In this document: positions 7,192-45,425 of the stretch, piece after piece
Position numbering within the stretch: the stretch's first letter is position 1
Layout: each line of letters starts with the position of its first letter
Assembly (NCBI GenBank): GCA_050633245.1
Contig: JBOEGD010000024.1
Span: forward strand, 199,787-263,786
Source: Calditrichia bacterium
GTDB taxonomy: Bacteria; Calditrichota; Calditrichia; RBG-13-44-9; J075
Length of the DNA: 64,000 nucleotides
Direction of reading: 5' to 3'
Notes under the pieces: model-generated
Told to the model about the DNA's origin: nothing
Databases searched by the model: none
Seen by the model: only the letters and a program-made list of their open reading frames with translations
Program-made: the position numbers and the translations under genes

Positions 7192-9003
7192 ATGAAGAAT
7201 CGATATTTGTTTTCAGTACAAGGAAAAACGGCCCTAATTCCATTGTTGATTGTTCTTTTGTTCCCGTTTTTTTCGGCATCTATGCAAGCACAGGATTTAC
7301 TGTGGGGTAACCGGTCGGGTGGGGGATCCAGTGACTCAGGTCTTGATATTGCAGTCGACGCTTCCGGTAATAGTTATGTCACCGGCCACTTTGAGGGAGA
7401 AGCAACCTTCGGAGAGGGGCAAGCGAATGAAACCATTTTAAATAGTGTTGGCTTTTTGGATATCTTTGTGGCCAAATACGATCTTAACGGTTTGCTGATG
7501 TGGGTCAGACAGGCTGGTGGCCTTGAACTTGCTCAAGGCCTTCATATTTCAGTTGATGCATCCGGCAGCAGTTCTGTAACCGGTGTTTTTGATGGAATGG
7601 TCACCTTTGGAGTAGGTGAAGCCAACGAAACAACCTTAACCAGTTCAGGTTCTACGAATATCCACGATATTTTTATTGCCAGATACGACGCGAATGGTAT
7701 GTTGGTGTGGGCTACACGAGCGGGCGGTCAAAACTCAAATGATGTTGGTTCGTCAATCGCTGTTGATGACTTTAATAACAGCTATATAGCGGGGTATTTT
7801 AGTGATTCCACTATCTTTGGTGAGGGTGAAGCCAATGAAACCACTCTCAGCGGATTCGGTTCGTTTGACATCTTCATTGCTAAGTACGACGCAAATGGTT
7901 TATTACATTGGGCCAAGGAAGCTGGTGGTATTTCTTTCGAGGTAGGGTTAGGTATTGCCGTGAATTCTTCCAGTCAGAGTTATATAACTGGTTTGTTCGA
8001 AGGCGCAATTACTTTAGGATCTGGTGAAGCCAATGAAACAGTTCTGACCAGTGTGGATGGACGTGATGTTTTTGTCGCAAAGTATGACGCCGATGGCTTG
8101 CTGCTTTGGGCAAAGCGGGCTGGTGGGCCGGGAAATGATGAAGGTTTTGGCATTGAAGTTGGGCTGGCTGGCAGTAATTATATAACTGGCAAGTTTGAAG
8201 ACACTGCTACATTTGGGATGATTGGAACGAACGAGACCATCTTAAATAGTCAAGGGGCTAATGACGTTTTTGTGGCAAAGCTTGCTGCAGATGGAACACT
8301 GCTCTGGGCCAAACAGTCCGGAGGCTCTGGTAACGACCAGGGAGCTGAAATAATTGTTGATGCTTCCGGCAATGGTTATCTAACCGGTCTATTTGAAGGC
8401 GTTGCAACTTTTGGAGCGGGTGAAGCCAACGAAACTATTGTGACCAGTGCAGGCGCGACCGATATCTTCGTGACAAAATACGACTCCGACGGCTTGGTGC
8501 TTTGGGCTAAACAGGCTGGTGGGCCATCAGGTGACTTTAGTGAAGGCATTGGGGTCGATGCATTTGGTAACAGTTATATCGCTGGTCAATTCGAAGGGTT
8601 TGCAACCTTTGGTGCAGGTGAAGCCAACGAAACCATTTTAACCAGCGCAGGCTCGGCCGATATCTTTGTGGCTAAATATCAGAACAATTCACCATCGAGT
8701 GTGGGAGAAACGTTAACTCAGATAGACAATTTCAATTTAGCTCAGAACTATCCCAATCCTTTCAATCCCGTAACCGTAATTACTTTTGAAGTGCCAAAAG
8801 CTGTTCAAAGCACACTGGCTATTTATAACTTGCGCGGCCAATTAATACGTATTTTAACTTCAGGAAAAATTCTGCAAGGCCAACATCAGGCAATCTGGAA
8901 TGGCACAGATGACACTGGTCGAGAAATGGCGAGTGGAATTTATTTCTATAGATTAAATGCCGGTGAGTTTAGCGCTACAAAGAAAATGATACTTCTTCAA
9001 TAG
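7192..9003 (+). CDS. secreted repeat protein with T9SS (Por) C-terminal sorting domain
   Basis: Signal peptide. About 8 tandem 67-aa repeats (G.GEANETxLxSxG..DIFVAKYD.NGLL.WAK.AGG...D.G..I.VD.SGNSYxTG.FEG.ATFG); the DNA also repeats at about 201-bp period (ggtgaagccaa[c/t]gaaac at 7615, 7822, 8024, 8417 and 8619). C-terminus NYPNPFNP...IYNLRGQLIRIL matches the type-A T9SS C-terminal domain. Confidence 0.8.
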   Translation: MKNRYLFSVQGKTALIPLLIVLLFPFFSASMQAQDLLWGNRSGGGSSDSGLDIAVDASGNSYVTGHFEGEATFGEGQANETILNSVGFLDIFVAKYDLNGLLMWVRQAGGLELAQGLHISVDASGSSSVTGVFDGMVTFGVGEANETTLTSSGSTNIHDIFIARYDANGMLVWATRAGGQNSNDVGSSIAVDDFNNSYIAGYFSDSTIFGEGEANETTLSGFGSFDIFIAKYDANGLLHWAKEAGGISFEVGLGIAVNSSSQSYITGLFEGAITLGSGEANETVLTSVDGRDVFVAKYDADGLLLWAKRAGGPGNDEGFGIEVGLAGSNYITGKFEDTATFGMIGTNETILNSQGANDVFVAKLAADGTLLWAKQSGGSGNDQGAEIIVDASGNGYLTGLFEGVATFGAGEANETIVTSAGATDIFVTKYDSDGLVLWAKQAGGPSGDFSEGIGVDAFGNSYIAGQFEGFATFGAGEANETILTSAGSADIFVAKYQNNSPSSVGETLTQIDNFNLAQNYPNPFNPVTVITFEVPKAVQSTLAIYNLRGQLIRILTSGKILQGQHQAIWNGTDDTGREMASGIYFYRLNAGEFSATKKMILLQ

Positions 9004-9122: not shown

Positions 9123-10067
9123 GTGCAGAACAACAATATGATGAACCACCAAGCCTTTAGCCAAATCGATCACCGACCCTGGGCGTGTCCCGGCAGACCC
9201 TGGCTCATGCGTCAGTCGTGGTGCGATCTTCTTTTTGCGCATTGGCCTGTCCCGGCATCACTCCTTCGTCCGTTAGTGCCGTCCAGCCTGGAAATTGATG
9301 AATTCGACCATACGTCGTGGGTCGGGGTGGTACCATTTCGTATGGAAGGCGTTTCGCTAAGATATGCACCTGACGTTCCGGGGCTATCGGCATTTCCTGA
9401 GATTAACCTGCGACTGTATGTCTCGGCCAACGGAAGGCCGGGTGTATGGTTCCTGAGTCTGGACGCAACAAACGCGTTGGCAGTTTGGGCCGCTCGCCGC
9501 TTCTTCTATCTTCCCTATTTCAATGCCAGGATATCGATCTCGCATTCAGGTCCGAACTTGCATTACAGATCGGTCCGGTCGGATGGCGAACAGTCTGCGG
9601 TATTTTCAGCTACTTATGGCCCGAAAGGCGACGTCTACCTGGCAAAACCGGGTAGTCTTGAGCACTGGCTGACGGAGAGGTATTGTCTTTACGCTGAAGA
9701 CAAAAACGGGCGCATTCTTCGAACCGAAGTGCATCATCGTCCGTGGCCACTTCAATCTGCTGATGCATTGATTGAGGAGAATACTGTTGGGAATGTTCAT
9801 GGAATAGAACTTGATTGCCATCCAGCGCTTGTTCATTTTAGTAAGCGAATTGACGTGGTTGCGTGGAGACCGAGAGACGTACGTTTGTCTGCTGATTACT
9901 TGGTAATGAGTTGTTTTACATTGAGAAGAAAATGTTCAGAAAATTGTGTCTATTTAGAGAATGATGTGTATATATGCACGCTTTCTTTAAGTAATAAAGA
10001 GAATGACTTATCTCCGTTGAATGGAATGTTAGCCGGGCGAAGTAATCATGAAAATCTATCTCGATGA
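9123..10067 (+). CDS. DUF2071 (YqjF-like) family protein. The C-terminus is longer than typical for the family.
   Basis: N-terminal W.....W.DLLFAHWPV..... pattern characteristic of DUF2071. The last ~70 aa are low-complexity-looking and overlap the next gene by 20 nt. Confidence 0.5.
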   Translation: MQNNNMMNHQAFSQIDHRPWACPGRPWLMRQSWCDLLFAHWPVPASLLRPLVPSSLEIDEFDHTSWVGVVPFRMEGVSLRYAPDVPGLSAFPEINLRLYVSANGRPGVWFLSLDATNALAVWAARRFFYLPYFNARISISHSGPNLHYRSVRSDGEQSAVFSATYGPKGDVYLAKPGSLEHWLTERYCLYAEDKNGRILRTEVHHRPWPLQSADALIEENTVGNVHGIELDCHPALVHFSKRIDVVAWRPRDVRLSADYLVMSCFTLRRKCSENCVYLENDVYICTLSLSNKENDLSPLNGMLAGRSNHENLSR

Positions 10068-10359
10068 TGAGCGAACTCCGCCGCCAGGCTGGTTGCTGTT
10101 ACGTTGGCCGGACGAAGTTATCGAAAAGCTTAAATTGGGTAATGTTACACATTTGAGTCTCGATCATGATCTTGGCGATGATGAGCGAGGCACAGGCTAC
10201 GATGTTGTATTGTGGTTGGAAGAGGCTGTGGCAACTCGCGGTTTTGTTCCGCCAACAACATTGAAGGTTCACTCAGCAAACAGCTCCGCTCGCCTGAAGA
10301 TGGAAGCGGGTCTTAAATCTATCCGACGGTTGGCTGCTGAAGGTAAAAACGTTAGCTGA
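10048..10359 (+). CDS. stand-alone CPR (cyclic-phosphate processing receiver-like) domain protein
   Basis: MKIYLDDERTPP.GW......E....L......LSLDHDLGD...TGYDV..WLEE matches the remembered CPR signature (LDDxR ... DHDLG ... GYD..W). Confidence 0.5.
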   Translation: MKIYLDDERTPPPGWLLLRWPDEVIEKLKLGNVTHLSLDHDLGDDERGTGYDVVLWLEEAVATRGFVPPTTLKVHSANSSARLKMEAGLKSIRRLAAEGKNVS

Positions 10360-13152: not shown

Positions 13153-13254
13153 TAAAGTGCCAATTGACCTCTTCGCCCAATGAAGAAGTCGTTACCGGCC
13201 AAAATCTTCTTGTAAGTATCTGAGCGTTGTAGTATGTTGTTGCATATTATTCCT

Positions 13255-13344
13255 GAAATTTGGAATAACACACTAAAAACCTCTATCCATAATTATTCTT
13301 TAACAGACTATTTTGTGCTGAAACCACTTCGGTTTTTAATCTCG
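13255..13344 (+). repeat. direct repeat R1 (~90 bp) upstream of the metallophosphoesterase gene
   Basis: ggaataacacactaaaaac...ttctttaacagactattttgtgctgaaaccacttcggtttttaatctcg aligns with 14990..15074 (ttctttaacagactgttctgtgctgaaataccttggtttttgaaaccg). Confidence 0.7.
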
Positions 13345-14822: not shown

Positions 14823-14989
14823 TGTAGAGGCTGAAGCCGTCGAAAGCGCATGAATCTGCTACTACGCCATCGGAAAGTGTGACAGATTCATGCAAACTTT
14901 TTAATACTTTGTTGGAGTTGTTACAAAGCTGAAGGTTTTCTGGCGTTTTGCAGATCACTTTATTATGTTATTAGACGTTCTTCTCGGAG

Positions 14990-15074
14990 TTGGGAAAAAC
15001 ACAACAAACTCCCCACTATAAAAACGTTCTTTAACAGACTGTTCTGTGCTGAAATACCTTGGTTTTTGAAACCG
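14990..15074 (+). repeat. direct repeat R2, paralogous to 13255..13344
   Basis: See R1. It contains a small palindrome, GGTTTttgAAACC. Confidence 0.7.
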
Positions 15075-15247
15075 GGTGCTCCAAAAAGCATGTGACTAGT
15101 TGTTGAGCGGTTATCGGATTGAAAAAAATCAGAAAAAAGTATCTATATAATTAACAGTTTAATGCACTAAATACCAAGTCGCACCACCTCCGGCATTCTC
15201 TGCCGGGCTGGAAGTAACCTTGCTCTGCTTATGTATGCGGAGCGAAG

Positions 15248-15658
15248 TTGATACGCGCTAGAAAGAGAATGATTTATGAAGAATTTGATGATCTACAAGA
15301 GCTGTTTTTTATGGGCCCTGAACTCGAAAGCCGACACGCATGGTGGCACTGGGTCTATTTTTTAATGATGCCTGTCTTAGATATTACAGGCCCCTTGTCG
15401 CATATTTTCTCAACGGGGCAATGTGATTACACTTACAAAGATGATGAGCGATTTCCCGGTGTGCGTAATCCGATTACTTTTTACGCCTGGGCTAAGTCTT
15501 ACCATCTCGAATATGACCGTATGGTTGCAACCTTCTTACCCCGGACTCCGGCTCAACGTCGGGATTTAGCTGCGATGAGAGAATATAGTGATATCATTGC
15601 GAAGGCTTTAAGAGAGGCACGCGATATACTGAATGAATCAGATAGTAGTGATGAGTAA
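15248..15658 (+). CDS. hypothetical protein
   Basis: 136-aa ORF. Its 3' end overlaps the degraded YcaQ copy. Confidence 0.35.
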   Translation: MIRARKRMIYEEFDDLQELFFMGPELESRHAWWHWVYFLMMPVLDITGPLSHIFSTGQCDYTYKDDERFPGVRNPITFYAWAKSYHLEYDRMVATFLPRTPAQRRDLAAMREYSDIIAKALREARDILNESDSSDE

Positions 15659-16351
15659 CCCCATGAATATCTCCCTCTCGCTTCAACAAGCCCGTAAGCT
15701 GGCCCTGTTATCGCAGCGACTACCGCCGGTAAATCAAGCCGGTAGCGCAACGGCTGCTACTTTGGCGGCGATTGAGCAGCTCGGTTATATTCAGATCGAT
15801 ACGATCTCCGTCATTCAGCGTGCTCATCACCACACCCTGTGGAATCGCAATCCGCGTTACAAAGCTGTGCAGCTAAGTCAGCTGATTACTGAGAAAAAAG
15901 TGTTCGAATACTGTCTCATGCCGCGGCTTACCTGCCGATGCGCGACTACCAGTTTAGCTTCGTGTGCAAGCATGCCCTTGCAACTGGCACGCTAAAGCAA
16001 TGGTATAAGCGCGATGATAAGATGATAAAGCTGGTGCTGGATCGTATTGCCGGCGAAGGCTCGCTAATGGCCAGAGATTTTGAGCACATTGGTAAAAAGA
16101 TCGGTGACTGGCGAGCCAAGCCGGCCAAGCAGGCACTGGAATATCTGTTTATGCAGGGTGACCTGATGATAGCGAGCCGCGTAAATTTTCACAAGGTGTA
16201 CGACCTTACCGAGCGGGTGCTGCCGGAAGGAATTGGAAGCATTTCAATAGATGCACCGGACTTGTGTTACACCGAACCTCGCCAAAAACGGTTAAACCGG
16301 AGCTGCAGGTGTTGATGGGGAATTTGGCGGGACGCTTGGTGTAATTGAGCC
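15633..16351 (+). pseudogene. degraded duplicate of the YcaQ-family (DUF1006 winged-helix) gene, with frameshifts and a ~570-bp internal deletion
   Basis: Two ORF pieces (15633..15995 and 15938..16315) are about 95% identical in nucleotide sequence to 19813..20390 of the intact gene. A 1-nt deletion (tattggtctcatg becomes tactgtctcatg) breaks the frame. The homologous N-terminal ~190 codons are joined directly to the last ~20 codons (aaccggagctgcaggtgttgatgggg), with another frame change. Confidence 0.75.
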
Positions 16352-19812: not shown

Positions 19813-21015
19813 ATGAAAGAATCGCTATCTATTCAACAAGCCCGAAAACTGGTGCTGCTATCGCAGAAACTGCCGCCTACAAAGCAGACCGGTGGCGCAA
19901 CAGCAGCCACCCTGGCTGCAATTGAACACCTCGGCTATATTCAGATCGATACGATTTCCGTCATTCAGCGTGCCCATCACCATACTCTGTGGAATCGCAA
20001 TCCGCGTTACAAAGCTGTGCAGCTAAGTCAGCTGATTACTGAGAAAAAAGTGTTCGAGTATTGGTCTCATGCCGCAGCTTACCTGCCGATGCGTGACTAC
20101 CGGTTTAGCTTGGTGCGCAAGCATGCCCTTGCAACTGGCACGCTAAAGCAATGGTATAAGCGCGATGATAAGATGATAAAGCTGGTGCTAGACCGTATTG
20201 CCGGCGAAGGCCCGTTGATGGCCAGAGATTTTGAGTATACCGGTAAAAAGGTCGGTGACTGGCGAGCCAAGCCGGCCAAGCAGGCGCTGGAATATCTGTT
20301 TATGCAGGGTGACCTGATGATAGCAAGCCGCGTGAATTTTCACAAGGTGTACGACCTTACCAAGCGGGTGTTGCCGGAAGGAATTGATACCACATTGCCG
20401 GAACCGGAGGAATACGCCCGATTTCTGATTACGCAGTATTTACGCGCGAATGGTCTGGGACAACCCGCCGAAATGGCTTATTTGTTGACCAATACCAAGC
20501 GACGTGTTACCGCTACTGTGCAGGAAATGGTTGAGGCCGGAGAGCTGCTGCAGGTTTCCGTTGCCGATAACAGCTACTATGTGCTGCCGGAATCACTGGA
20601 GCTGCTAAGTAAACCGTTGGCGCGTAGCAAGTTGAAGATTCTGTCGCCATTCGACAATCTGCTCATCCAGCGGAAGCGAATGCAGGCGCTGTTTGAATTC
20701 GACTATCTAATTGAATGCTATGTGCCGCAGGTCAAGCGCCAATACGGCTATTTCTCTCTGCCCATTCTATGGGATGGCAAGCTGGTCGCGCGAATGGACT
20801 GCAAAGCAGACCGGAAGACAACGCTGCTGCATATTCATAATCTTGCCATAGAACCCACGGTAAAGAAAACCGACGTGCTTTTCAACGCGCTGCGTAAGGA
20901 ACTGGAAGCCTTCCTACATTTTAATGACTGTACCGGGCTGGTACTGCACAAGACTTCGCCTGCAAAAGTTAAATCGGAGCTGCAGGTTTTGATGGGGGAT
21001 CTTCTCGCTTCTTGA
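19813..21015 (+). CDS. YcaQ-family winged-helix protein (DUF1006; interstrand-crosslink repair DNA glycosylase family)
   Basis: 400 aa. N-terminal IQIDTISVIQRAHHHTLWNR.PRY pattern. Length and overall pattern fit the YcaQ family. Confidence 0.65.
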   Translation: MKESLSIQQARKLVLLSQKLPPTKQTGGATAATLAAIEHLGYIQIDTISVIQRAHHHTLWNRNPRYKAVQLSQLITEKKVFEYWSHAAAYLPMRDYRFSLVRKHALATGTLKQWYKRDDKMIKLVLDRIAGEGPLMARDFEYTGKKVGDWRAKPAKQALEYLFMQGDLMIASRVNFHKVYDLTKRVLPEGIDTTLPEPEEYARFLITQYLRANGLGQPAEMAYLLTNTKRRVTATVQEMVEAGELLQVSVADNSYYVLPESLELLSKPLARSKLKILSPFDNLLIQRKRMQALFEFDYLIECYVPQVKRQYGYFSLPILWDGKLVARMDCKADRKTTLLHIHNLAIEPTVKKTDVLFNALRKELEAFLHFNDCTGLVLHKTSPAKVKSELQVLMGDLLAS

Positions 21016-37658: not shown

Positions 37659-38330
37659 ATGAGAGAAGTTTTCGACGTCTCTTTAACTGGCGCGAATTTA
37701 CCCTACACAATCTTACTCGGATTGGTTCTGCTTTACTGGATCAGCGTTATTATCGGCGCTCTGGATATCAGTTTTTTGGATGTTGATATTGATGCAGACG
37801 CTGATATTGATGTTGATATTGATGCAGACGTCGAAGCAGATATCGAAGGAGCGGAAGGTGCTTTCTCTGCTCTGGACACCCTCCTAACGTTTATGAATTT
37901 GCGCGACATTCCCTTTATGATCGTCTTCAGCATCTTTTCATTGATTCTTTGGATGGGAGCGCTGATAGGTAATCATTTAGTTGGTGGACAATCCTGGCTG
38001 TTTTATTTACTGGCCTTTTTCCCGAATATCCTGGGTTCAATGCTAATAACTAAAGTAGTAACCACGCCACTTCGCCCGCTATTTAGAGCTTTCAAGGACA
38101 CCGGCGATGCGCGAGTTGAAGTGGTGGGACAAATTTGTACTATTGTCAGCCCTGCAGACTCTCAGCGATTAGGGCAAGCCGAAATAACGCTTTCGGGAGC
38201 CCCGCTGCTGCTGAATGTGAAAACCTGGAAAGAGAATGCCCTTGGGAAAGGTAAGCGCGCGATTGTGATTGAAAAAAGTAAAGATGGTGACTATTACATT
38301 GTAGAAGAATTTAACGAATGGGAGAACTAG
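37659..38330 (+). CDS. YqiJ/NfeD-like membrane protein with a C-terminal OB-fold
   Basis: Two TM segments. An acidic DVDIDADADIDVDIDADVEADIEG repeat is encoded by a 30-bp tandem duplication at 37779..37838. The C-terminal beta-rich ~80 aa resemble an NfeD OB-fold. It lies immediately upstream of the flotillin gene, the canonical nfeD-floT arrangement. Confidence 0.6.
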   Translation: MREVFDVSLTGANLPYTILLGLVLLYWISVIIGALDISFLDVDIDADADIDVDIDADVEADIEGAEGAFSALDTLLTFMNLRDIPFMIVFSIFSLILWMGALIGNHLVGGQSWLFYLLAFFPNILGSMLITKVVTTPLRPLFRAFKDTGDARVEVVGQICTIVSPADSQRLGQAEITLSGAPLLLNVKTWKENALGKGKRAIVIEKSKDGDYYIVEEFNEWEN

Positions 38331-40409
38331 ATGAACTTCATTACAGACGTATTATTTTCGGGAGGGTTAATCCTTCTGATATTGGGAGTTGGCGTATTCG
38401 CCTGGCTTGTCCAGCGCTATAAGAAAATAGACCAGGGAATGGCCATTGTTCGCAATGGGATTGGCGGATCGAAAGTCAGTTTTACCGGCATGTTTGTTTT
38501 TCCTGTTCTGCATCGCGGAGAATACCTCGACATCTCGGTTAAACGAGTAGAGATTGAGCGCTCAGGCAAGGATGGGCTTATTTGTGAAGACAATATTCGT
38601 GCAGATATAAAGGTTGCATTTTTTGTACGCGTAAATAAAACTGAGGAAGATGTGCTTAAAGTAGCGCAATCACTCGGCACATCACGTGCATCCGATCAGC
38701 AGGCACTCATCGATTTTTTTGACGCCAAGTTTTCAGAAGCTCTGAAAACCGTCGGTAAGCAGTTTGCCTTTGTCGATCTATACAATTCGCGTGAACGCTT
38801 TAAGAGTGAAATTCTGCAAACGATCGGTACCGATCTCAACGGTTATGTGCTCGATGATGCGGCCATTGATTATCTTGAACAAACGCCTTTGGATTTCCTG
38901 AGCGCAGACAATATTCTCGATGCCCAGGGTATTAAGAAGATCACCGATATTACCGCGCAGCAAAGCATCTTATCTAATCAGATCGCTCGCAATAAGGAAA
39001 AAACAATTACCCAGCAGGATGTTGAAGCACGCGAGGCGATTCTTGAGCTTAACCGCCAGCTGGCTGAAACGGAAGAACGTCAGAAGCGCGAGATTGCCTC
39101 TATTAAGGCACGTGAAGAAGCCGAGGCAGCGCGGGTAGAACATGAAGAAAGATTGAAGTCTGAGCGAGCTCGCATTCTAACGGAAGAAGAACTGGCGGTT
39201 GCTGAAGAGAATAAGCTGAGACAGGTCATTGTTGCTGCGAAAAGCAAAGAACGCACCGATGCTGTAGAGAACGAGCGTGTACTGAAAGATAAGTTTCTTG
39301 AGCAAAACGAACGCGAGCGCGTAGTATCATTAGCGCAGATTGAAAAAGAGCGTGCGATTGAAGAAGAACGCAAAAACATTCAGGAAGTTATTCGTGAACG
39401 AATAGCGGTTGAAAAGTCGGTGGTGGAAGAAGAAGAGCGCATCAAGGATACACGCGCCATTGCTGAAGCTGATCGCAAGAAGCAGGTTGCACTGACCTTT
39501 GCAACACAGGAGGCTGAAGAGGCAAAAACCCGTGAAGTTATTGCTGCTGATGCTGCCCGCGAAGCGGCTCGAATGAAGGCCGAGCAGGATGTTATTGAAG
39601 CCGAAGCCTCAAAAGAAGCAGCTACTAAAGAAGGTGAAGCTCGCAAAACACTTGCTGAAGCACAAGCTGCTGAAGAAGCAACGCTCGGACTCTCGGAAGT
39701 GCAGGTGCTGGAAGCAAAAGCGAATGCAATCGAAAAACAGGGATCTGCTGAGGCGAATGTGCTTGAAATGAAGGCTACCGCTGAAGCCCGTGGCATTGAA
39801 GCAAAGGCTGTTGCACTCGAAAAGGAAGGAACGGCAGAAGCAACGGTGATGTCGAAAAAGTTCTCTGCTGAAGCGCAAGGCATTGAAGATAAGGCCGCAG
39901 CCATGAAAAAGCTGGACGGCGTTGGAAAAGAGCACGAAGAGTTTAAGTTGCGCCTGGATGTAGACAAGCAGGTGAAGCTGGCAAAAATTCATGTTCAAAA
40001 GGATATCGCGGAGGCACAGGCATCTGTGATTCGGGAAGGCTTGCAGGCAGCGAATATCGATATCGTTGGTGGCGAAAGTATGTTTTTCGATAAGATTGTC
40101 GGTTCCATAAGCAATGGTAAAGCGATTGACAGATTCATGGAAAACAGTACGACCGTGTCGGATATCAAGGATACGTTTTTTAGCGGTGATGCCGATGAAT
40201 TCAGCAACAGACTGCAAACCTTTATCAGTCGATTTGGCATGTCATCTGCCGATCTGAAGAATCTGACCATCTCGGCGCTCATTGCAAAGCTAATGGGTTT
40301 AAGCGGAGACAATGAAATCGATACCTCTCTTCTACATCAACTACGCGACTTTGTTGAGATGAAGGGAATCGGCAGTAAGCCAGCGTCATCACTACTAAAA
40401 CGCAAGTAG
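38331..40409 (+). CDS. flotillin-like SPFH/band-7 protein (YqiK/FloT-like)
   Basis: N-terminal TM segment. SPFH domain (GMAIVRNGIGGSKVSFTGMFVFPVLHRGEYLDISVKRVE). A long Glu/Ala/Lys/Arg-rich coiled coil follows, typical of flotillins. The start is 1 nt after the preceding stop. Confidence 0.85.
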   Translation: MNFITDVLFSGGLILLILGVGVFAWLVQRYKKIDQGMAIVRNGIGGSKVSFTGMFVFPVLHRGEYLDISVKRVEIERSGKDGLICEDNIRADIKVAFFVRVNKTEEDVLKVAQSLGTSRASDQQALIDFFDAKFSEALKTVGKQFAFVDLYNSRERFKSEILQTIGTDLNGYVLDDAAIDYLEQTPLDFLSADNILDAQGIKKITDITAQQSILSNQIARNKEKTITQQDVEAREAILELNRQLAETEERQKREIASIKAREEAEAARVEHEERLKSERARILTEEELAVAEENKLRQVIVAAKSKERTDAVENERVLKDKFLEQNERERVVSLAQIEKERAIEEERKNIQEVIRERIAVEKSVVEEEERIKDTRAIAEADRKKQVALTFATQEAEEAKTREVIAADAAREAARMKAEQDVIEAEASKEAATKEGEARKTLAEAQAAEEATLGLSEVQVLEAKANAIEKQGSAEANVLEMKATAEARGIEAKAVALEKEGTAEATVMSKKFSAEAQGIEDKAAAMKKLDGVGKEHEEFKLRLDVDKQVKLAKIHVQKDIAEAQASVIREGLQAANIDIVGGESMFFDKIVGSISNGKAIDRFMENSTTVSDIKDTFFSGDADEFSNRLQTFISRFGMSSADLKNLTISALIAKLMGLSGDNEIDTSLLHQLRDFVEMKGIGSKPASSLLKRK

Positions 40410-40451
40410 GAAACCTAATGGTCGCCATGCTAAAAACAGTATTGGCGACCA

Positions 40452-43400
40452 GTGATGCGGACAGAATTTACGTTGAGGAAATCCATGACGGATAATATAC
40501 AAGAAGAGCAGCTACCGGTTGATGCACCGGAACAACAGCTTGAGGGTGGCACCTACGAGCTTATTCGCAATCGCCTGAGAGGGCAGGGTGAGGAGCTGCG
40601 CGGACGTCTTGAAAAGCTGAATGCAGAACGTAAGGAAGTGTTCGGTTCAATAGACAGCCGTTTGCTGAATACCGATCGAATTACCACCGAGCATAATTGT
40701 TTGCCGCAAGATATGGTGCCAATCGGAAACCTGTTTATCTTTGGCTACAATGTACATATCGGCTTGAAAAGCGAAACCAGCATATCGGATGTGCTTTCGG
40801 TTTATCGTTATTCGGATCATGCTTTTCATTTAACCGAACCGACTCTCCTGCAAAATCGCGAGTTTGAAGACGACTTCCGCAATCTCTATAAATACTACAA
40901 GAAAACGCGTTTTGTGAAGTTCTCGGTGATTGGCCCCTATTTATATATGGCTTTTCAAATTGGTCGTAGTACCACCGATATTAAAACTTTTAAATGGCTG
41001 ATTAGGGACAATGCGCTTGAATATGTAGACAATCGCAGTGAACATGAATTTCGCTTTCCCGCGCAGCAGGAAGTAGATTGGAAGCGTGCTACGCGAGATT
41101 TTCATCGGGATGGAGACCATCCACATGTCTCTATTGCAGATCGATTATTTGTTGAGTCGATCGGTGGTGACCTAACGATCAAGATTGAAGATAATACCGA
41201 TTCGGGTGAGGGAATATATGCCGAACCCGTAGACCATAAAGAACAGTTACTTGATGATGCTGAGATCTTTTATGCACTTGCCGGCGACTTAATTCTCCTT
41301 AAAATCAAACCGTTTCAGGAAAAAAACTTTCGCTATCTGGTGTATAGCGAAAAAAATCAGCAGGTTCGCCGTGCAGATAGTATCCAGGATTCCTGCATCT
41401 TCCTGCCGGATGATCATGGAATTGTTTTCGCCAAAGGTTATGTCTTGCAAAGCGGTACGTTCAAGCTTTTCGAGCATGAGCTACAAAATATTCGCTTCGA
41501 GAAACAATGGGCCTCACCAAACGGAGAGGATCATCTCTTCGTCTTTTTCCAGCCGGAAAGCGGAACGTATGTGTTATTGCGATACAATGTAATTGCACAA
41601 GCAGTAGATGTTCCGCTCTTATGCAGTGGTTATGCGCATTTTGAAAATGGTGAGATGGTATATTTTCGAGCGGAAGAAACACCCGGCAAACATCATGCAG
41701 CTCAGATCTGGCAAACGCCTTTTGTAAGTCCGGAATACAATCCTCCGGTTAAAAAGGGCTCGTATCTTTATAAAATAGGGAATAAGGACATCGTCCGTTG
41801 TATGTCGGAGTGTCAAGAAGTCTATAATCTGGCATTCAGAGACGATTCCTATGCGAACCTCTATGTCGATATTGTTAAGAAAAGCCGCGATATTCTCGAT
41901 TCCTACTTTTGGCTCACCGAACCGAAAGCTCAAAATTTAAGCGAACCGCTACAGTCCCTTCACGATGCCGGTGCGGCAGCTTTGGCCGAGTTCGACAAGG
42001 TAGAGCGACTACGGCGAACTGCTCGCGAAGAGCTTTTAAAAGTAAAAAAACAAACAGAGGCCATTCTTGAAGAGACAAAACGACCAGACTTTAAGACAGT
42101 AGACAAGTATGTCGAAAAACTGACTGCACTTAGAACGTTGCGAGGCGAACTGATTTCGCTGCGCGACGTTCGCTATATCGATCTTAAAGCAATTGAAGCA
42201 TTGGAAGATGCTATCTCTGAACGTAGCGATATGTTGTCTGCAGCATGCGTCGAGTTTTTACTAAAACCAAATGCCTTAGAACCATATGGAGTGAAGGTTG
42301 CTGAACTCGACAAGCGGATTCCGGACGTCAGTAAAGTTGCGGTAGGCAAGGTGCTTGCTGAGGATATCGATAAAGTTGCTGCTGAACTTGAGATGTTAAT
42401 TGAGGTTGTCAGTAATCTTAAAATAGACGATGCAACGCAAACCACCGAAATTGTGGACAGCGTTTCTACTATTTACAGTACGCTAAATCAAACGCGAGCT
42501 CGCCTGCGCAAACGAATTTCTTCCCTGCAAAGCACTGAGGCAATTGCCGAGTTTAACGCGCAGATAAAGCTGCTTGGTCAGGGACTGATTAATTATCTGG
42601 ATCTATGCGAGACCCCCGAAAAATGCGATGAATACCTAACCAGACTTATGGTGCAGCTCGAAGAGCTGGAAGGCCGATTTGCCGACTTTGATGATTTTAT
42701 CCTACAGCTCTCTGAAAAGCGTGAAGAAATTTATGGCGCTTTTGAATTGCGAAAAATTATGTTGGTCGAGTCGCGAAATAAGCGCGCTTCTACTTTACAG
42801 AGCGCAGCAGAGCGCATCCTGAAAGGCATTCAAAACAGACTATCTGCTTTCGATACGACGGCAGCAATTAATGGTTACCTGGCTTCCGACTTAATGGTGG
42901 ATAAGGTCCGGGACATCATTGAGCAACTTACCAATCTTGGCGATACCATTAAGGCCGACGATATACAAACCCGGCTCAAAACGCTGCGCGAAGATACGGT
43001 GCGGCAACTAAAGGACAAGAAAGAGCTCTTTGTAGATGGCGAGAATGTCATCAAAATGGGGGAGCGACGCTTTTCCGTAAACACGATGAAGCCGGATCTT
43101 ACTATTTTACCTCATGAAGATGGAATGGCGCTGCATCTTACCGGAACGCGGTTCTTTGAGGCGTTGGAGGATGCTGTCTTTTTGGAAACTCGTCCGGTCT
43201 GGAAGCAGGAAGTTGTTTCAGAAAGTGCCGATGTTTACCGCGCGGAATATTTGGCCTGGCAGATACTTCAGGATGTCGTTCAGTCCCGAAGCGACACTGC
43301 TTCGCTTGCTGGTAAGAAATTACTTCCAGCTGTGCAGAAGTTTATGAACACCCGTTTTGAAGAAGGCTATGTAAAAGGCGTTCATGATGCGGATGCCGCC

Positions 43401-45425
43401 TTGTTTTTAAAAAGTCTGTTAAAAATTGAAAAAGATGTGGGTCTCTTAAGATCTCCTCCGGAAGTGCGGGCTTGTGCGATGGTCTTTTGGCTGCACTTTG
43501 CAGATTCTGGCGATCGGGATCGACTTGCCGGACGACTTTCCAGCGTGGGCGAAGTATTAAATGTCTTTCCGGAAAGTGCAGAACGGCAACGTTACATTGA
43601 TGATCTCTCTGAAATGATAACGATCTGGTTAGAAGAAACCGGTTTATATAGTCTTGAGCTTGCCAAGCCTGTTGCCCGCTGCCTTTTTGAACAGCTGGTT
43701 TCGGAAAGCGATTCCTTTGTTATAAGTCATGAAGGGTCGGAACTATATGGCAGCTTTATGGCATATTTGAACAAGAAGCGTGCTCGGACTGCCTTTGATA
43801 AGTCTCTAAAGCGATTGGAGAAAGACGCACTCGGACGGATAACGCTTCTACGAGACTGGCTGATTGGTTATGCCGAGTCGCTTCCTGCTGTAATGCAGGA
43901 CGGCTATGTAGAAGAGGTTGTTGCGCTGCTTTTTTGCGACAACTATTCTGATAAGCAGGTAAAACGCGTTTCGGTGCGAGCTGAGCTGAATGGATTCCTC
44001 GGTGAACATTCTGTTCTTCAGGACAATACCTATTCGCTCGATTATCATGCGTTTAATCGCAAATTGGAAGCCTTTCATCGTCGAGAGATACCCTTGTTTC
44101 AGCGCTATCTGAAGTTGAAGAAAGAACGCATCGAGGCCTATCGTGAAGAAATGCATTTGGAAGATTTTACGCCGAGAGTGTTGACGTCTTTTGTACGCAA
44201 TAAATTGATCGATCAGCTGTATCTTCCGCTAATCGGAGATAACCTGGCTAAGCAAATCGGTGAGACCGGCGCAGCAACCCGAACGGATAGAATGGGAATG
44301 CTGCTGTTGATCTCTCCGCCGGGGTATGGTAAAACCACGCTAATGGAGTATGTAGCGAATCGACTGGGTCTGATTTTGATGAAGATCAACGGACCGGCGA
44401 TCGGGCATCATGTAACTTCACTGGATCCTGCTGAAGCGCCAAACGCTGCTGCCCGTGAAGAGGTTGAAAAACTGAATCTTTCGTTGGAGTTCGGTGATAA
44501 CGTCATGATTTATCTGGACGATATTCAGCACTGTAATCCGGAATTTCTGCAAAAGTTTATTTCGCTCTGCGATGCGCAACGGAAAATTGAAGGGGTTTAT
44601 AAAGGACGCAGTCGCACCTACGATCTGCGCGGCCGTAAGGTTTGCGTGGTGATGGCGGGGAACCCATACACCGAAAGCGGCGAGGCATTCAAAATCCCCG
44701 ATATGCTGGCCAACCGCGCCGACACCTATAATCTCGGGGATATCCTGGGCGACAATGCTGATATCTTCAAGCTGAGTTATCTGGAAAATTCACTGACCTC
44801 AAACTCAATCCTCAGCAAGCTCGCAAATAAAGAGCAAGAAGATATTTACTCGCTCATTCGCTTTGCCGAAAGCGGCGATCGCGAACAGCTGAAACTCGAA
44901 GGAAGTTATTCTGCCGATGAGGTGAAAGACTACGTTGCTGTATTTCAACGCCTGCTACGAATTCGGGACGTTATTCTTCGGGTCAACCAGGAATATATTC
45001 GCTCTGCCGGTCAGGCCGATGCTTATCGCACCGAACCGCCGTTTAAGCTACAGGGTTCCTATCGCAACATGAACAAGCTGGCAGAGAAAGTAATTCCGGT
45101 TATGAACAAGGAAGAGCTTGAATTGTTAATCGCTTCGCACTACGAGCAGGAGGCGCAAACGCTGACAACCGGTGCTGAAGCGAACCTGCTTAAGTTTCGC
45201 GAAATTAATGAATTGCTGAGTGATGAAGACGCAGAGCGTTGGGCAGACATCAAAAAAACATTCACTAAAAACCGCATGTTTGGCGGTAATGGTGGAAGTG
45301 ATCGCATGGCGCAGTTATTGGCACAGTTAGATTCATTTGGAGATGGTTTAGACGGCATTCGTGAGGTGTTGGAAAAAGCGGTAAATGCAAAACCGAAAAC
45401 AACGAAACGGAAAAAAACGCCGTAG
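40452..45425 (+). CDS. giant (1657 aa) protein with a C-terminal MoxR-like AAA+ ATPase domain. The N-terminal ~1200 aa are of unknown function.
   Basis: Walker A LLLISPPGYGKTTL (about nt 44310-44345). Walker-B-like IYLDDIQHC (about nt 44507-44535). MoxR/dynein-type sensor region CVVMAGNPYTESGEAFKIPDMLANRADTYNL. Long predicted helical and coiled-coil stretches upstream. It starts 42 nt after the flotillin stop. Confidence 0.7.
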   Translation: MMRTEFTLRKSMTDNIQEEQLPVDAPEQQLEGGTYELIRNRLRGQGEELRGRLEKLNAERKEVFGSIDSRLLNTDRITTEHNCLPQDMVPIGNLFIFGYNVHIGLKSETSISDVLSVYRYSDHAFHLTEPTLLQNREFEDDFRNLYKYYKKTRFVKFSVIGPYLYMAFQIGRSTTDIKTFKWLIRDNALEYVDNRSEHEFRFPAQQEVDWKRATRDFHRDGDHPHVSIADRLFVESIGGDLTIKIEDNTDSGEGIYAEPVDHKEQLLDDAEIFYALAGDLILLKIKPFQEKNFRYLVYSEKNQQVRRADSIQDSCIFLPDDHGIVFAKGYVLQSGTFKLFEHELQNIRFEKQWASPNGEDHLFVFFQPESGTYVLLRYNVIAQAVDVPLLCSGYAHFENGEMVYFRAEETPGKHHAAQIWQTPFVSPEYNPPVKKGSYLYKIGNKDIVRCMSECQEVYNLAFRDDSYANLYVDIVKKSRDILDSYFWLTEPKAQNLSEPLQSLHDAGAAALAEFDKVERLRRTAREELLKVKKQTEAILEETKRPDFKTVDKYVEKLTALRTLRGELISLRDVRYIDLKAIEALEDAISERSDMLSAACVEFLLKPNALEPYGVKVAELDKRIPDVSKVAVGKVLAEDIDKVAAELEMLIEVVSNLKIDDATQTTEIVDSVSTIYSTLNQTRARLRKRISSLQSTEAIAEFNAQIKLLGQGLINYLDLCETPEKCDEYLTRLMVQLEELEGRFADFDDFILQLSEKREEIYGAFELRKIMLVESRNKRASTLQSAAERILKGIQNRLSAFDTTAAINGYLASDLMVDKVRDIIEQLTNLGDTIKADDIQTRLKTLREDTVRQLKDKKELFVDGENVIKMGERRFSVNTMKPDLTILPHEDGMALHLTGTRFFEALEDAVFLETRPVWKQEVVSESADVYRAEYLAWQILQDVVQSRSDTASLAGKKLLPAVQKFMNTRFEEGYVKGVHDADAALFLKSLLKIEKDVGLLRSPPEVRACAMVFWLHFADSGDRDRLAGRLSSVGEVLNVFPESAERQRYIDDLSEMITIWLEETGLYSLELAKPVARCLFEQLVSESDSFVISHEGSELYGSFMAYLNKKRARTAFDKSLKRLEKDALGRITLLRDWLIGYAESLPAVMQDGYVEEVVALLFCDNYSDKQVKRVSVRAELNGFLGEHSVLQDNTYSLDYHAFNRKLEAFHRREIPLFQRYLKLKKERIEAYREEMHLEDFTPRVLTSFVRNKLIDQLYLPLIGDNLAKQIGETGAATRTDRMGMLLLISPPGYGKTTLMEYVANRLGLILMKINGPAIGHHVTSLDPAEAPNAAAREEVEKLNLSLEFGDNVMIYLDDIQHCNPEFLQKFISLCDAQRKIEGVYKGRSRTYDLRGRKVCVVMAGNPYTESGEAFKIPDMLANRADTYNLGDILGDNADIFKLSYLENSLTSNSILSKLANKEQEDIYSLIRFAESGDREQLKLEGSYSADEVKDYVAVFQRLLRIRDVILRVNQEYIRSAGQADAYRTEPPFKLQGSYRNMNKLAEKVIPVMNKEELELLIASHYEQEAQTLTTGAEANLLKFREINELLSDEDAERWADIKKTFTKNRMFGGNGGSDRMAQLLAQLDSFGDGLDGIREVLEKAVNAKPKTTKRKKTP

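What the first reader, a model, noticed from the sequence alone, without database searches (positions are those of the whole stretch)
9123..10359. Stand-alone CPR (cyclic-phosphate processing receiver-like) domain gene overlapping an extended DUF2071 gene, with MOSC and GNAT genes nearby and no RNA-repair enzymes
The 103-aa protein matches the receiver-derived CPR signature (LDDxR...DHDLG...GYD). CPR domains are reported mainly fused to, or next to, RNA-end-healing and ligation enzymes in RNA-damage/repair conflict systems. Here it stands alone. Its start lies inside the unusually long C-terminal tail of a DUF2071 (YqjF-like) ORF, with a 20-nt overlap. It is followed by a 140-aa unknown protein, a MOSC-domain protein and a GNAT acetyltransferase. 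This may be a remnant or a novel context for CPR signalling. The DUF2071 tail may be a frameshifted or fused region.
Basis: partly seen in the sequence, partly recalled or inferred. Interest (0 to 1): 0.55.

Follow-up and report, generated by a model that had tools for sequence, protein, structure and literature searches.

The report
Ordinary stand-alone cREC gene beside stop-loss neighbour
The 103-aa gene is an intact, typical member of a large, mobile family of stand-alone "cREC" receiver-like proteins whose function has never been tested, and its overlap with the neighbouring DUF2071 gene is an accident of a lost stop codon, so the locus is ordinary.

Summary
ORF 10048-10359 matches Pfam cREC_REC (PF20274) end to end at 90.8 bits. 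ORF 9123-10067 is a DUF2071/YqjF protein with a 56-aa tail that overlaps cREC by 20 nt. The 64-kb window holds no RNA-repair or NAD-processing gene.

The interpretation (remnant or novel context) is not supported:
- NCBI already names this exact protein a cREC protein (Calditrichia MAG).
- Its closest relatives (top 120 of at least 2,895 hits) are all 96-138 aa and 66-79% identical across many phyla.
- In 80 genomes, 290 first- to third-neighbour genes fall into about 280 Pfam families. None occurs more than 4 times. None of the window's neighbours recurs.
- The same clade sits on plasmids, prophages and one integron array, so it is a self-contained mobile single-gene module.

The tail is explained. 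Homology to the closest DUF2071 locus ends exactly where that locus has TAG and the window has TAC (9897-9899). The ORF then reads through AT-rich, orphan spacer.

The parts
10048..10359 (+). Stand-alone cREC (cyclic-phosphate-processing receiver-like) gene, 103 aa, intact. Predicted elements: b1 2-5, b2 15-18, helix 21-29, b3 35-38, helix 50-64, b4 71-74, helix 79-102. Putative pocket residues: D6, D7, R9, D39, D41, H75, N78.
9123..9896 (+). DUF2071 / YqjF-family gene proper (codons 1-258). The real start is probably ATG 9138 or 9141, as in homologs and in the NCBI call of 309 aa.
   Evidence: PF09844 E 1.8e-73, aa 30-243. NCBI protein P0121 is 309 aa. Alignment with 15 homologs, which all end 5-10 residues after the VVAWxP motif. 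83.6% nucleotide identity to L089 over window 9146-9898.
9897..9899 (+). TAC (Tyr259) at the position where the closest relative has its TAG stop. This is the stop-loss point and also the exact end of DNA homology with that relative.
   Evidence: DNA alignment: L089 GAT GAT TAG against window GCT GAT TAC. The blastn alignment ends at window 9898.
9900..10067 (+). Read-through tail of the DUF2071 ORF (55 codons plus TGA). It is AT-rich former spacer that probably also carries the cREC expression signals. Its last 20 nt overlap the cREC start.
   Evidence: GC is 29-33% here against 50-60% in the gene body. Codon-position GC is 0.29/0.37/0.31 against 0.60/0.45/0.51. No homolog of the tail peptide among 5.8 billion proteins. 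No DUF2071 homolog covers it. The open frame is unexpectedly rare in shuffles, 0.27%.

Best explanation
The 103-aa gene is a normal, functional member of a large clade of stand-alone cREC proteins. This clade moves between genomes as a self-contained single gene.

Shown:
- The protein has a truncated receiver (CheY-like) fold with four strands and three helices. It lacks helix 1 and the beta5-alpha5 output face.
- It has an invariant pocket. This consists of the two aspartates after strand 1 (D6, D7) plus R9, a D-x-D-L-G motif after strand 3 (D39, D41), and H75..N78 after strand 4.

Inferred, following Iyer et al. 2021/2022 and never tested:
- The pocket acts as a small phosphoesterase. It would open cyclic phosphates such as RNA 2',3'>P ends, 2',3'-cNMP or ADP-ribose 1''-2'' cyclic phosphate.
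- The substrate would be a universal cellular or phage-conflict metabolite rather than the product of a neighbouring gene.

The gene has no functional tie to DUF2071, the 140-aa ORF, MOSC or GNAT. The 20-nt overlap is a by-product. The DUF2071 gene lost its stop codon, either by a G-to-C change (TAG to TAC) or because the DNA downstream of that point was replaced. Its ORF now runs through 165 nt of AT-rich spacer to the first in-frame stop, which happens to lie 17 nt inside cREC.
For: Family and integrity:
- Full-length PF20274 match.
- Identical NCBI protein with that name.
- 35 of 103 positions are invariant among 37 homologs from several phyla.
- D6/D7/R9/D39/D41/H75/N78 are also kept in phage cRECs of only 36-44% identity.

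Fold:
- AF2 pLDDT 95.9 and pTM 0.87.
- Foldseek also finds receiver domains, weakly.

Stand-alone is the norm:
- The top 120 hits are 96-138 aa.
- There are 2,677 50%-identity cluster representatives at E<=1e-3. Of the best 150, 110 are 180 aa or shorter.
- The longer ones carry mutually unrelated extensions with sporadic domains.

No conserved partner:
- 0 of 80 genome loci have a homolog of any window neighbour.
- No neighbour cluster is shared by more than 5 of 80 loci.
- The 140 immediate neighbours give 135 Pfam families, maximum 4 per family.
- The 150 second and third neighbours give 149 families, maximum 3, with NUDIX in 2.
- PADLOC gives no hit.

Mobility:
- Three cREC cassettes with attC-like sites lie next to a tyrosine recombinase in L085/L086.
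- 31 plasmid records carry it.
- 80 IMG/VR loci at up to 67% identity carry it, forming 60 distinct groups.

Tail:
- Homolog lengths and C-termini.
- TAG against TAC at the same codon.
- Homology ends at 9898.
- Non-coding composition.
- The tail is an orphan sequence.
- The closest DUF2071 relative has an OmdA gene downstream.
Against: - No biochemical data exist for any cREC. It was still called 'experimentally uncharacterized' in 2022 (PMC9503650). The enzymatic step is inference only.
- The published rationale rests on RNA-repair and NAD-processing neighbourhoods, which this clade lacks.
- The tail stays open for 55 codons in only 0.27% of dinucleotide shuffles, while the other two forward frames carry 7 and 6 stops.
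- Only the 64-kb window was available. Partner enzymes elsewhere in the genome were not examined.
- Gene calls for the 80-genome census were made with a simple ORF heuristic, so a few neighbours may be miscalled.
Confidence: 0.75

Rival explanations
1. Novel functional pairing: DUF2071 (with its extension) and cREC form a translationally coupled two-gene system, perhaps with the 140-aa ORF, MOSC and GNAT genes. This would be a new context for cREC signalling.
For: The two ORFs overlap by 20 nt on the same strand. The tail's frame is open far more often than shuffles predict. One distant cREC relative is fused to a MOSC domain. GNAT domains appear twice among 150 second and third neighbours.
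Against: No DUF2071, MOSC, GNAT or 140-aa-ORF homolog was found within 6 kb of cREC in any of 80 genomes. The closest DUF2071 locus has a normal stop and a different downstream gene. DNA homology ends at the stop position. The tail has non-coding composition and no homolog. The single MOSC fusion and the two GNAT neighbours are at background level.
Confidence: 0.05
2. Remnant: the cREC gene is a decaying leftover of an RNA-repair or NAD-processing operon whose ligase and end-healing genes were lost.
For: No repair genes in 64 kb. In some phages cREC does sit beside an RNA ligase, a phosphoesterase and a kinase. The literature describes such contexts.
Against: The ORF is intact, with a full-model match and all invariant residues. 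It is 71-79% identical to homologs in other phyla, which indicates purifying selection. The same lack of partners holds in 80 genomes, so no operon was lost.
Confidence: 0.03
3. Non-enzymatic role: the protein is a ligand-binding 'sponge' for a nucleotide signal, or a protein-binding adaptor, immunity or anti-defence factor. Mobile elements would carry it to blunt host defence signalling, rather than it being a phosphoesterase.
For: Conservation is extremely high even at surface aromatic residues (W15, W20, W56, F66, PP68-69). It occurs as integron cassettes next to a Barstar gene and next to an Imm1 immunity gene. In prophages it sits in early regions beside an SSB and a putative adenine methylase, both identified by eye from sequence motifs and not by a family search. 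It also sits in accessory slots of temperate phages. No partner gene is needed.
Against: The invariant D-D / DxD / H..N constellation at strand ends is typical of a catalytic phosphoryl-transfer pocket. There is no PADLOC hit and no experimental anti-defence report. The window copy is chromosomal, and no phage family was detected among the ORFs of at least 100 aa in the window.
Confidence: 0.15
4. Artefact: the DUF2071 extension, and hence the overlap, comes from a base-call error at 9899 or a chimeric join at 9898 in the MAG assembly.
For: The difference from the relative's stop codon is one base. Homology ends exactly there and base composition changes abruptly. The source is a metagenome-assembled genome.
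Against: L089 is a different organism (83.6% nucleotide identity), so loss of synteny after a gene end is expected. No repeat that could cause a misjoin was seen at the junction. The contig is long, 415 kb. The cREC finding does not depend on this point.
Confidence: 0.1

Closest known systems
cREC / cRec domain (Pfam PF20274 cREC_REC; Iyer, Anantharaman, Krishnan, Burroughs & Aravind 2021, Viruses 13:63; Iyer et al. 2022, Viruses 14:1977)
   Same: Full-length profile match. It has the receiver-like fold, the conserved aspartates after strands 1 and 3, and no association with histidine kinases. It also matches phrog_1479 (unknown function), the phage counterpart.
   Different: The papers describe cREC as found 'only' in RNA-repair or 1''-2'' cADPr-processing contexts and 'mostly' in phages. 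The window's clade is 59-79% identical among cellular and plasmid copies and up to 67% identical on uncultivated viral contigs. It is under 60% identical (33-46% among the 25 records listed) to cRECs of the deposited phage genomes. It is overwhelmingly stand-alone and shows no such context in 80 genomes.
Classical receiver domains of two-component systems (CheY, Spo0A, RpfC REC; Pfam PF00072)
   Different: There is no PF00072 match. Helix 1 and the beta5-alpha5 face, with its conserved Lys, are missing. His75/Asn78 replace the Thr/Ser at strand 4. There is no kinase partner and no output domain.
2H phosphoesterases (functional analogue proposed in the literature)
   Same: The proposed chemistry is the same: resolution of 2',3'- or 1''-2''-cyclic phosphates.
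   Different: The fold and active site are unrelated. 2H activity is demonstrated, whereas cREC activity is only predicted.
DUF2071 / YqjF family (Pfam PF09844, distantly acetoacetate-decarboxylase-like)
   Same: Residues 30-243 match over the whole model, and 61-86% identical homologs exist.
   Different: It carries a unique 56-aa C-terminal extension created by loss of the stop codon.
Integron gene cassettes
   Same: In one metagenomic contig (L085/L086), three cREC genes are each followed by attC-like imperfect palindromes downstream of a tyrosine recombinase.
   Different: The window has no attC-like site at any gene boundary. Across 80 genomes such sites follow cREC no more often than in random segments (2 of 80 against 8 of 400).

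Membership tests
cREC_REC (PF20274) | Profile HMM score above the curated gathering threshold over most of the model | tested here: met
   90.8 bits against a cut-off of 27, model positions 1-87 of 88.
cREC_REC (PF20274) | Receiver-like Rossmannoid fold | tested here: met
cREC_REC (PF20274) | Conserved aspartates equivalent to the receiver active site | tested here: met
   D6, D7, D39 and D41 are invariant or nearly so in cellular and phage members.
cREC_REC (PF20274) | Never linked to histidine-kinase two-component systems | tested here: met
   No kinase is adjacent in the window. Response_reg occurs in only 3 of 150 second and third neighbours. No kinase family is among the top 25 families listed for the immediate neighbours, which reach at most 4 members each.
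cREC_REC (PF20274) | Gene-neighbourhood or fusion link to RNA-repair or NAD/ADPr-processing enzymes (the basis of the published functional prediction) | tested here: not met
   None in the 64-kb window. None is enriched among 290 neighbours in 80 genomes. The link is seen only in the phage control SKA64.
cREC_REC (PF20274) | Hydrolysis of cyclic phosphates | not testable with these tools
   No experimental data exist for any member.
Classical receiver domain (PF00072 Response_reg) | PF00072 profile match | tested here: not met
   No hit at E<=0.1.
Classical receiver domain (PF00072 Response_reg) | Five-stranded (beta-alpha)5 fold with a conserved Lys after strand 5 and Thr/Ser after strand 4 | tested here: not met
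   The model has 4 strands and 3 helices. Strand 4 is followed by H-S-A-N, and there is no strand 5.
DUF2071 / YqjF (PF09844) | Profile match over the full model | tested here: met
   247.1 bits, model positions 1-211 of 212.
DUF2071 / YqjF (PF09844) | Single-domain protein of about 245-255 aa ending shortly after the VVAWxP motif | tested here: not met
   The ORF is 314 aa. The 56 residues beyond the relatives' stop are unique to it.
Integron gene cassette | attC recombination site (imperfect palindrome with RYYYAAC...GTTRRRY-type ends) directly downstream of the ORF, in an array next to an integron integrase | tested here: not met
   A relaxed attC scan, calibrated on L085/L086, gives no boundary site in window 1-25000 and none around cREC. 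No integrase is present in the window.

The most novel reading that the evidence does not exclude
The cellular, plasmid and prophage clade to which this gene belongs may be a functionally distinct, self-sufficient single-gene module. One possibility is an enzyme or sponge that removes a cyclic-phosphate nucleotide signal, as counter-defence or as housekeeping 2',3'-cNMP turnover. This would differ from the phage RNA-repair-linked cRECs on which the family's annotation is based.

Several features would fit such a role against a universal target:
- extreme conservation (35 of 103 residues invariant across phyla);
- no partner gene;
- presence in integron cassettes, plasmids and prophage early regions.

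This would be a statement about the clade, not about this locus in particular.
Probability: 0.3. Interest if true: 0.5.

Novelty: already known. Interest (0 to 1): 0.15.

Why it matters
For this locus, very little. The gene is already annotated under the right family name, its arrangement is typical, and the odd overlap is a one-base stop loss in a neighbour.

The wider by-product is modest but useful. The largest, most conserved cREC clade lacks the RNA-repair and NAD-processing neighbourhoods from which the family's predicted function, and its name, were derived. Annotation-based inference of 'RNA repair' from a cREC hit is therefore unsafe. This small, highly conserved, mobile protein would be an easy and informative target for a first biochemical test of the family.

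Tried and rejected
1. Integron hypothesis for the window.
   - It was prompted by L085/L086 and by all genes from 81 to 24245 lying on one strand.
   - A strict attC consensus failed even on the positive control.
   - A relaxed, structure-aware scan recovered the L085/L086 attC sites. In the window it gave only 6 candidates, all inside coding sequence.
   - Across 80 genomes the rate equals the control rate. Rejected.
2. Conserved-partner search.
   - I used tblastn of the window's neighbours, de novo clustering, and Pfam censuses of the first neighbours and of the second and third neighbours.
   - No partner was found.
   - A recurrent upstream ORF of about 340 aa turned out to be confined to Undibacterium relatives.
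3. Fusion partners as functional clues. They are sporadic and mutually unrelated.
4. The tail as an independent or conserved small protein. No homolog was found. It remains an orphan.
5. Independent assemblies of the junction, to check TAC against TAG.
   - Two metagenome scans found nothing, not even the L089 control.
   - The window's own cREC protein is not on record in the contig index.
6. PADLOC gave no hit for cREC or its neighbours. Rfam gave nothing at gathering or E<=1 thresholds. A PDB sequence search found no relative.
7. Promoter and terminator scans around the junction were not above shuffle expectation.
8. The literature on E. coli 'yqjF' concerns an unrelated gene and was discarded.

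Full report
**What is in the sequence**

The two ORFs are as described: 9123-10067 (+, 314 aa) and 10048-10359 (+, 103 aa). They overlap by 20 nt.

Pfam results:
- The 103-aa protein matches cREC_REC (PF20274) over essentially the whole model: 90.8 bits against a cut-off of 27, E 9.4e-26. It matches nothing else, not even the classical Response_reg family.
- The 314-aa ORF matches DUF2071 (PF09844, E 1.8e-73) at residues 30-243.
- Downstream lie a 140-aa ORF with no family, a MOSC_N+MOSC protein, a 134-aa ORF with no family and a GNAT acetyltransferase.

NCBIfam, PADLOC and PHROGs add little. cREC falls in phrog_1479, 'unknown function'.

Pfam scans of the other ORFs of at least 100 aa in the window found trp and thr operons, two-component proteins, T9SS beta-propeller proteins and similar genes. 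They found no RtcB, RNA ligase, Pnkp, Hen1, Nudix, Macro, NADAR, sirtuin, TIR or WYL protein. The window has no tRNA and no Rfam family.

**Source and prior annotation**

The exact 103-aa protein is in NCBI from a Calditrichia bacterium MAG (415-kb contig). It is already named 'cyclic-phosphate processing receiver domain-containing protein'. The neighbouring ORF is annotated there as a 309-aa 'YqjF family protein', tail included.

**Is standing alone unusual? No.**

- A search of 5.8 billion proteins gave at least 2,895 hits. The best 120 are all 96-138 aa and 66-79% identical to the query. They come from Myxococcota, Burkholderiales, Planctomycetota and other groups.
- An exhaustive HMMER scan of 1.84 billion cluster representatives gave 2,677 representatives at E<=1e-3 and 826 at E<=1e-10.
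- Of the best 150 representatives, 110 are 180 aa or shorter.
- The 40 longer ones carry extra domains only sporadically: SpoU methylase, Pol-beta nucleotidyltransferase, MOSC, UDG and an intein, once each. Their extensions are unrelated to one another apart from three pairs.

**Is the neighbourhood meaningful? No.**

I fetched 80 genome loci with 6-kb flanks from many phyla.
- tblastn with the window's DUF2071, 140-aa ORF, MOSC, 134-aa ORF, GNAT and six other neighbouring genes gave no match for ten of the eleven. The exception was the T9SS beta-propeller protein, which matched 2 of the 80 loci.
- In de novo clustering, no neighbour family is shared by more than 5 of 80 loci. Those shared cases are within-genus synteny.
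- A Pfam census of the 140 immediate neighbours gave 135 families, none in more than 4 proteins.
- The 150 second and third neighbours gave 149 families, none in more than 3, with NUDIX in 2.

Individually annotated contexts vary widely:
- DUF4291 and Nudix
- an HTH-kinase
- Imm1 and flavin reductase
- unknown genes
- a Pseudomonas plasmid full of small hypothetical genes

As a positive control for the published context, Escherichia phage SKA64 has cREC just upstream of metallophosphoesterase, RNA ligase, kinase and MazG-like genes. Other phages do not show this: S-SKS1, Mater and Morkie.

**Mobility**

- One metagenomic contig (L085/L086) carries three 95-98% identical cREC copies in a one-strand array. 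The array lies downstream of a divergent tyrosine recombinase, and each cassette ends in an attC-like imperfect palindrome such as GCATAAC...GTTATGC.
- That prompted the idea that the window's one-strand gene run (81-24245) is an integron array. The calibrated scan rejects this. The window's six candidates all lie inside genes. Across 80 genomes, attC-like sites follow cREC in 2 of 80 loci, against 8 of 400 control segments.
- The clade also occurs on 31 plasmid records at 59-67% identity.
- It occurs on 80 IMG/VR viral loci at up to 67% identity, forming 60 distinct groups. Among these the commonest companion occurs in only 8 of 60 groups and appears to be an SSB. A putative adenine methylase and small early-region proteins also recur. 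Both identifications were made by eye from sequence motifs, not by a family search. No RNA-repair enzyme was evident.
- All 62 matching records among deposited, annotated phage genomes are below 60% identical. The 25 listed are 33-46% identical.

**The DUF2071 tail**

- Homologs are mostly 244-255 aa and cover only 71-81% of the query.
- In an alignment of 16 sequences, every homolog ends 5-10 residues after the VVAWxP motif.
- The closest relative is P0122 (86% amino-acid identity, locus L089). It ends ...REVTSYDD*, and its downstream gene encodes an OmdA-domain protein, not cREC.
- At the DNA level, L089 reads GAT GAT TAG where the window reads GCT GAT TAC (9897-9899).
- blastn homology (83.6% over 753 nt) runs from 9146 to 9898 and stops there.
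- Beyond that point GC falls to 29-33%, as in the spacer upstream of the gene.
- Codon-position GC is 0.29/0.37/0.31 in the tail against 0.60/0.45/0.51 in the gene body.
- The tail peptide has no homolog.

The extension is therefore a stop loss, not a frameshift. It arose either by a point change or because the downstream DNA was replaced from that point. The ORF then reads through spacer to the first in-frame stop, 17 nt inside cREC.

One oddity remains. Only 0.27% of dinucleotide shuffles keep 55 codons open, while the other two forward frames have 7 and 6 stops. I treat this as chance amplified by the way the locus was selected, but I record it as unexplained. Attempts to find independent assemblies of the junction failed, so a base-call error cannot be excluded.

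**What the protein looks like and how it probably works**

- No solved structure is detectable by sequence.
- An AlphaFold2 model built on 37 homologs is very confident (pLDDT 95.9, pTM 0.87). It shows beta1-beta2-alpha-beta3-alpha-beta4-alpha.
- Foldseek finds only weak receiver-domain matches.

It is thus a truncated receiver that lacks helix 1 and the beta5-alpha5 face.

Within the clade, 35 of 103 positions are invariant. Across cellular and phage members, the invariant or near-invariant set is D6, D7, R9, P12, G14, D39, D41, L42, G43, G50, E58, H75 and N78. That is the receiver acidic pocket plus a family-specific His/Asn.

The papers that defined the family predicted a cyclic-phosphate phosphoesterase from gene context alone (PMC7824862). 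In 2022 the authors still called it experimentally uncharacterized (PMC9503650). No later experimental paper was found.

I adopt that mechanism as the most likely one, but only as an inference. A non-catalytic binding or anti-defence role is the main rival.

**Verdict**

This is an already annotated, typical member of a known family, in a typical arrangement for its clade: partner-less and stand-alone. The overlap with DUF2071 is an incidental stop loss. Interest in the locus is low.

The only wider point is that the biggest cREC clade lacks the contexts on which the family's name and predicted function rest.

Noticed in passing
window 14954-15125 and 13247-13339; L089 2659-2828: A conserved non-coding element of about 110-170 nt lies in long intergenic regions upstream of genes. 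Its invariant core is TTCTTTAACAGACT.TT.TGTG.TGAAA. It is 79% identical between the window and the related metagenomic contig L089 and is present twice in the window. It has no Rfam match, and three copies are too few to test a structure. It could be a lineage-specific regulatory RNA, a promoter module or a small repeat element.
   Followed up: partly
L085 / L086 (ENA ERZ21869602, contig ctg93808l): An integron-like cassette array lies next to a tyrosine recombinase. It contains three 95-98% identical cREC cassettes, a Barstar gene and several unknown ORFs, with clear attC-like sites. A group II intron reverse transcriptase lies further downstream.
   Followed up: partly
window 15633-16315 versus 19813-21015: Two short ORFs with AlkZ-like DNA-glycosylase fragments are 84-94% identical at the DNA level to the 5' part of an intact AlkZ-like gene 4.15 kb downstream. 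This looks like a partial, disrupted duplicate, that is, a pseudogene.
   Followed up: no
window 9900-10064: The read-through tail has no stop in 55 codons, whereas the other two forward frames have 7 and 6. Only 0.27% of dinucleotide shuffles do as well. A 53-codon Cys-containing ORF starting at ATG 9906 lies in this frame, but it has no homologs.
   Followed up: yes
window 81-24245: All ORFs of at least 100 aa that appear to be genes in the first 24 kb lie on the + strand and are functionally heterogeneous: RRM protein, two T9SS SBBP beta-propeller proteins, AIG2-like, DUF6058, nucleotidyltransferase, SnoaL, DUF2200, DUF2071, cREC, MOSC, GNAT, metallophosphoesterase, AlkZ-like, TPR, DAO and sulfatase. 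Comparison with L089 shows different genes after DUF2071. The region looks like a variable accessory stretch, but it is not an integron.
   Followed up: partly
window 37659-45425: This is a same-strand trio: a YqiJ_N-like membrane protein (223 aa), a 692-aa protein with no family (its region has strong AT skew), and a 1,657-aa protein with DUF3686 ('ATPase involved in DNA repair'), DUF7902 and a C-terminal AAA domain. It may be an uncharacterised large ATPase system.
   Followed up: no
window 7192-9003 and 1130-2608: Two SBBP beta-propeller proteins. The one at 7192-9003 has a T9SS C-terminal sorting domain and is built from 198-nt (66-aa) tandem-like repeats that are 60-78% identical at the DNA level.
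   Followed up: no
IMG/VR loci L114-L117, L122-L124, L128, L143 and others: In prophage-sized viral contigs (40-55 kb), the cREC gene repeatedly lies within the last 5-10 kb of the contig. Its companions appear to be an SSB, a putative adenine methylase (both identified by eye, not by a family search) and small early-region ORFs. This suggests an accessory, possibly anti-defence, slot.
   Followed up: partly
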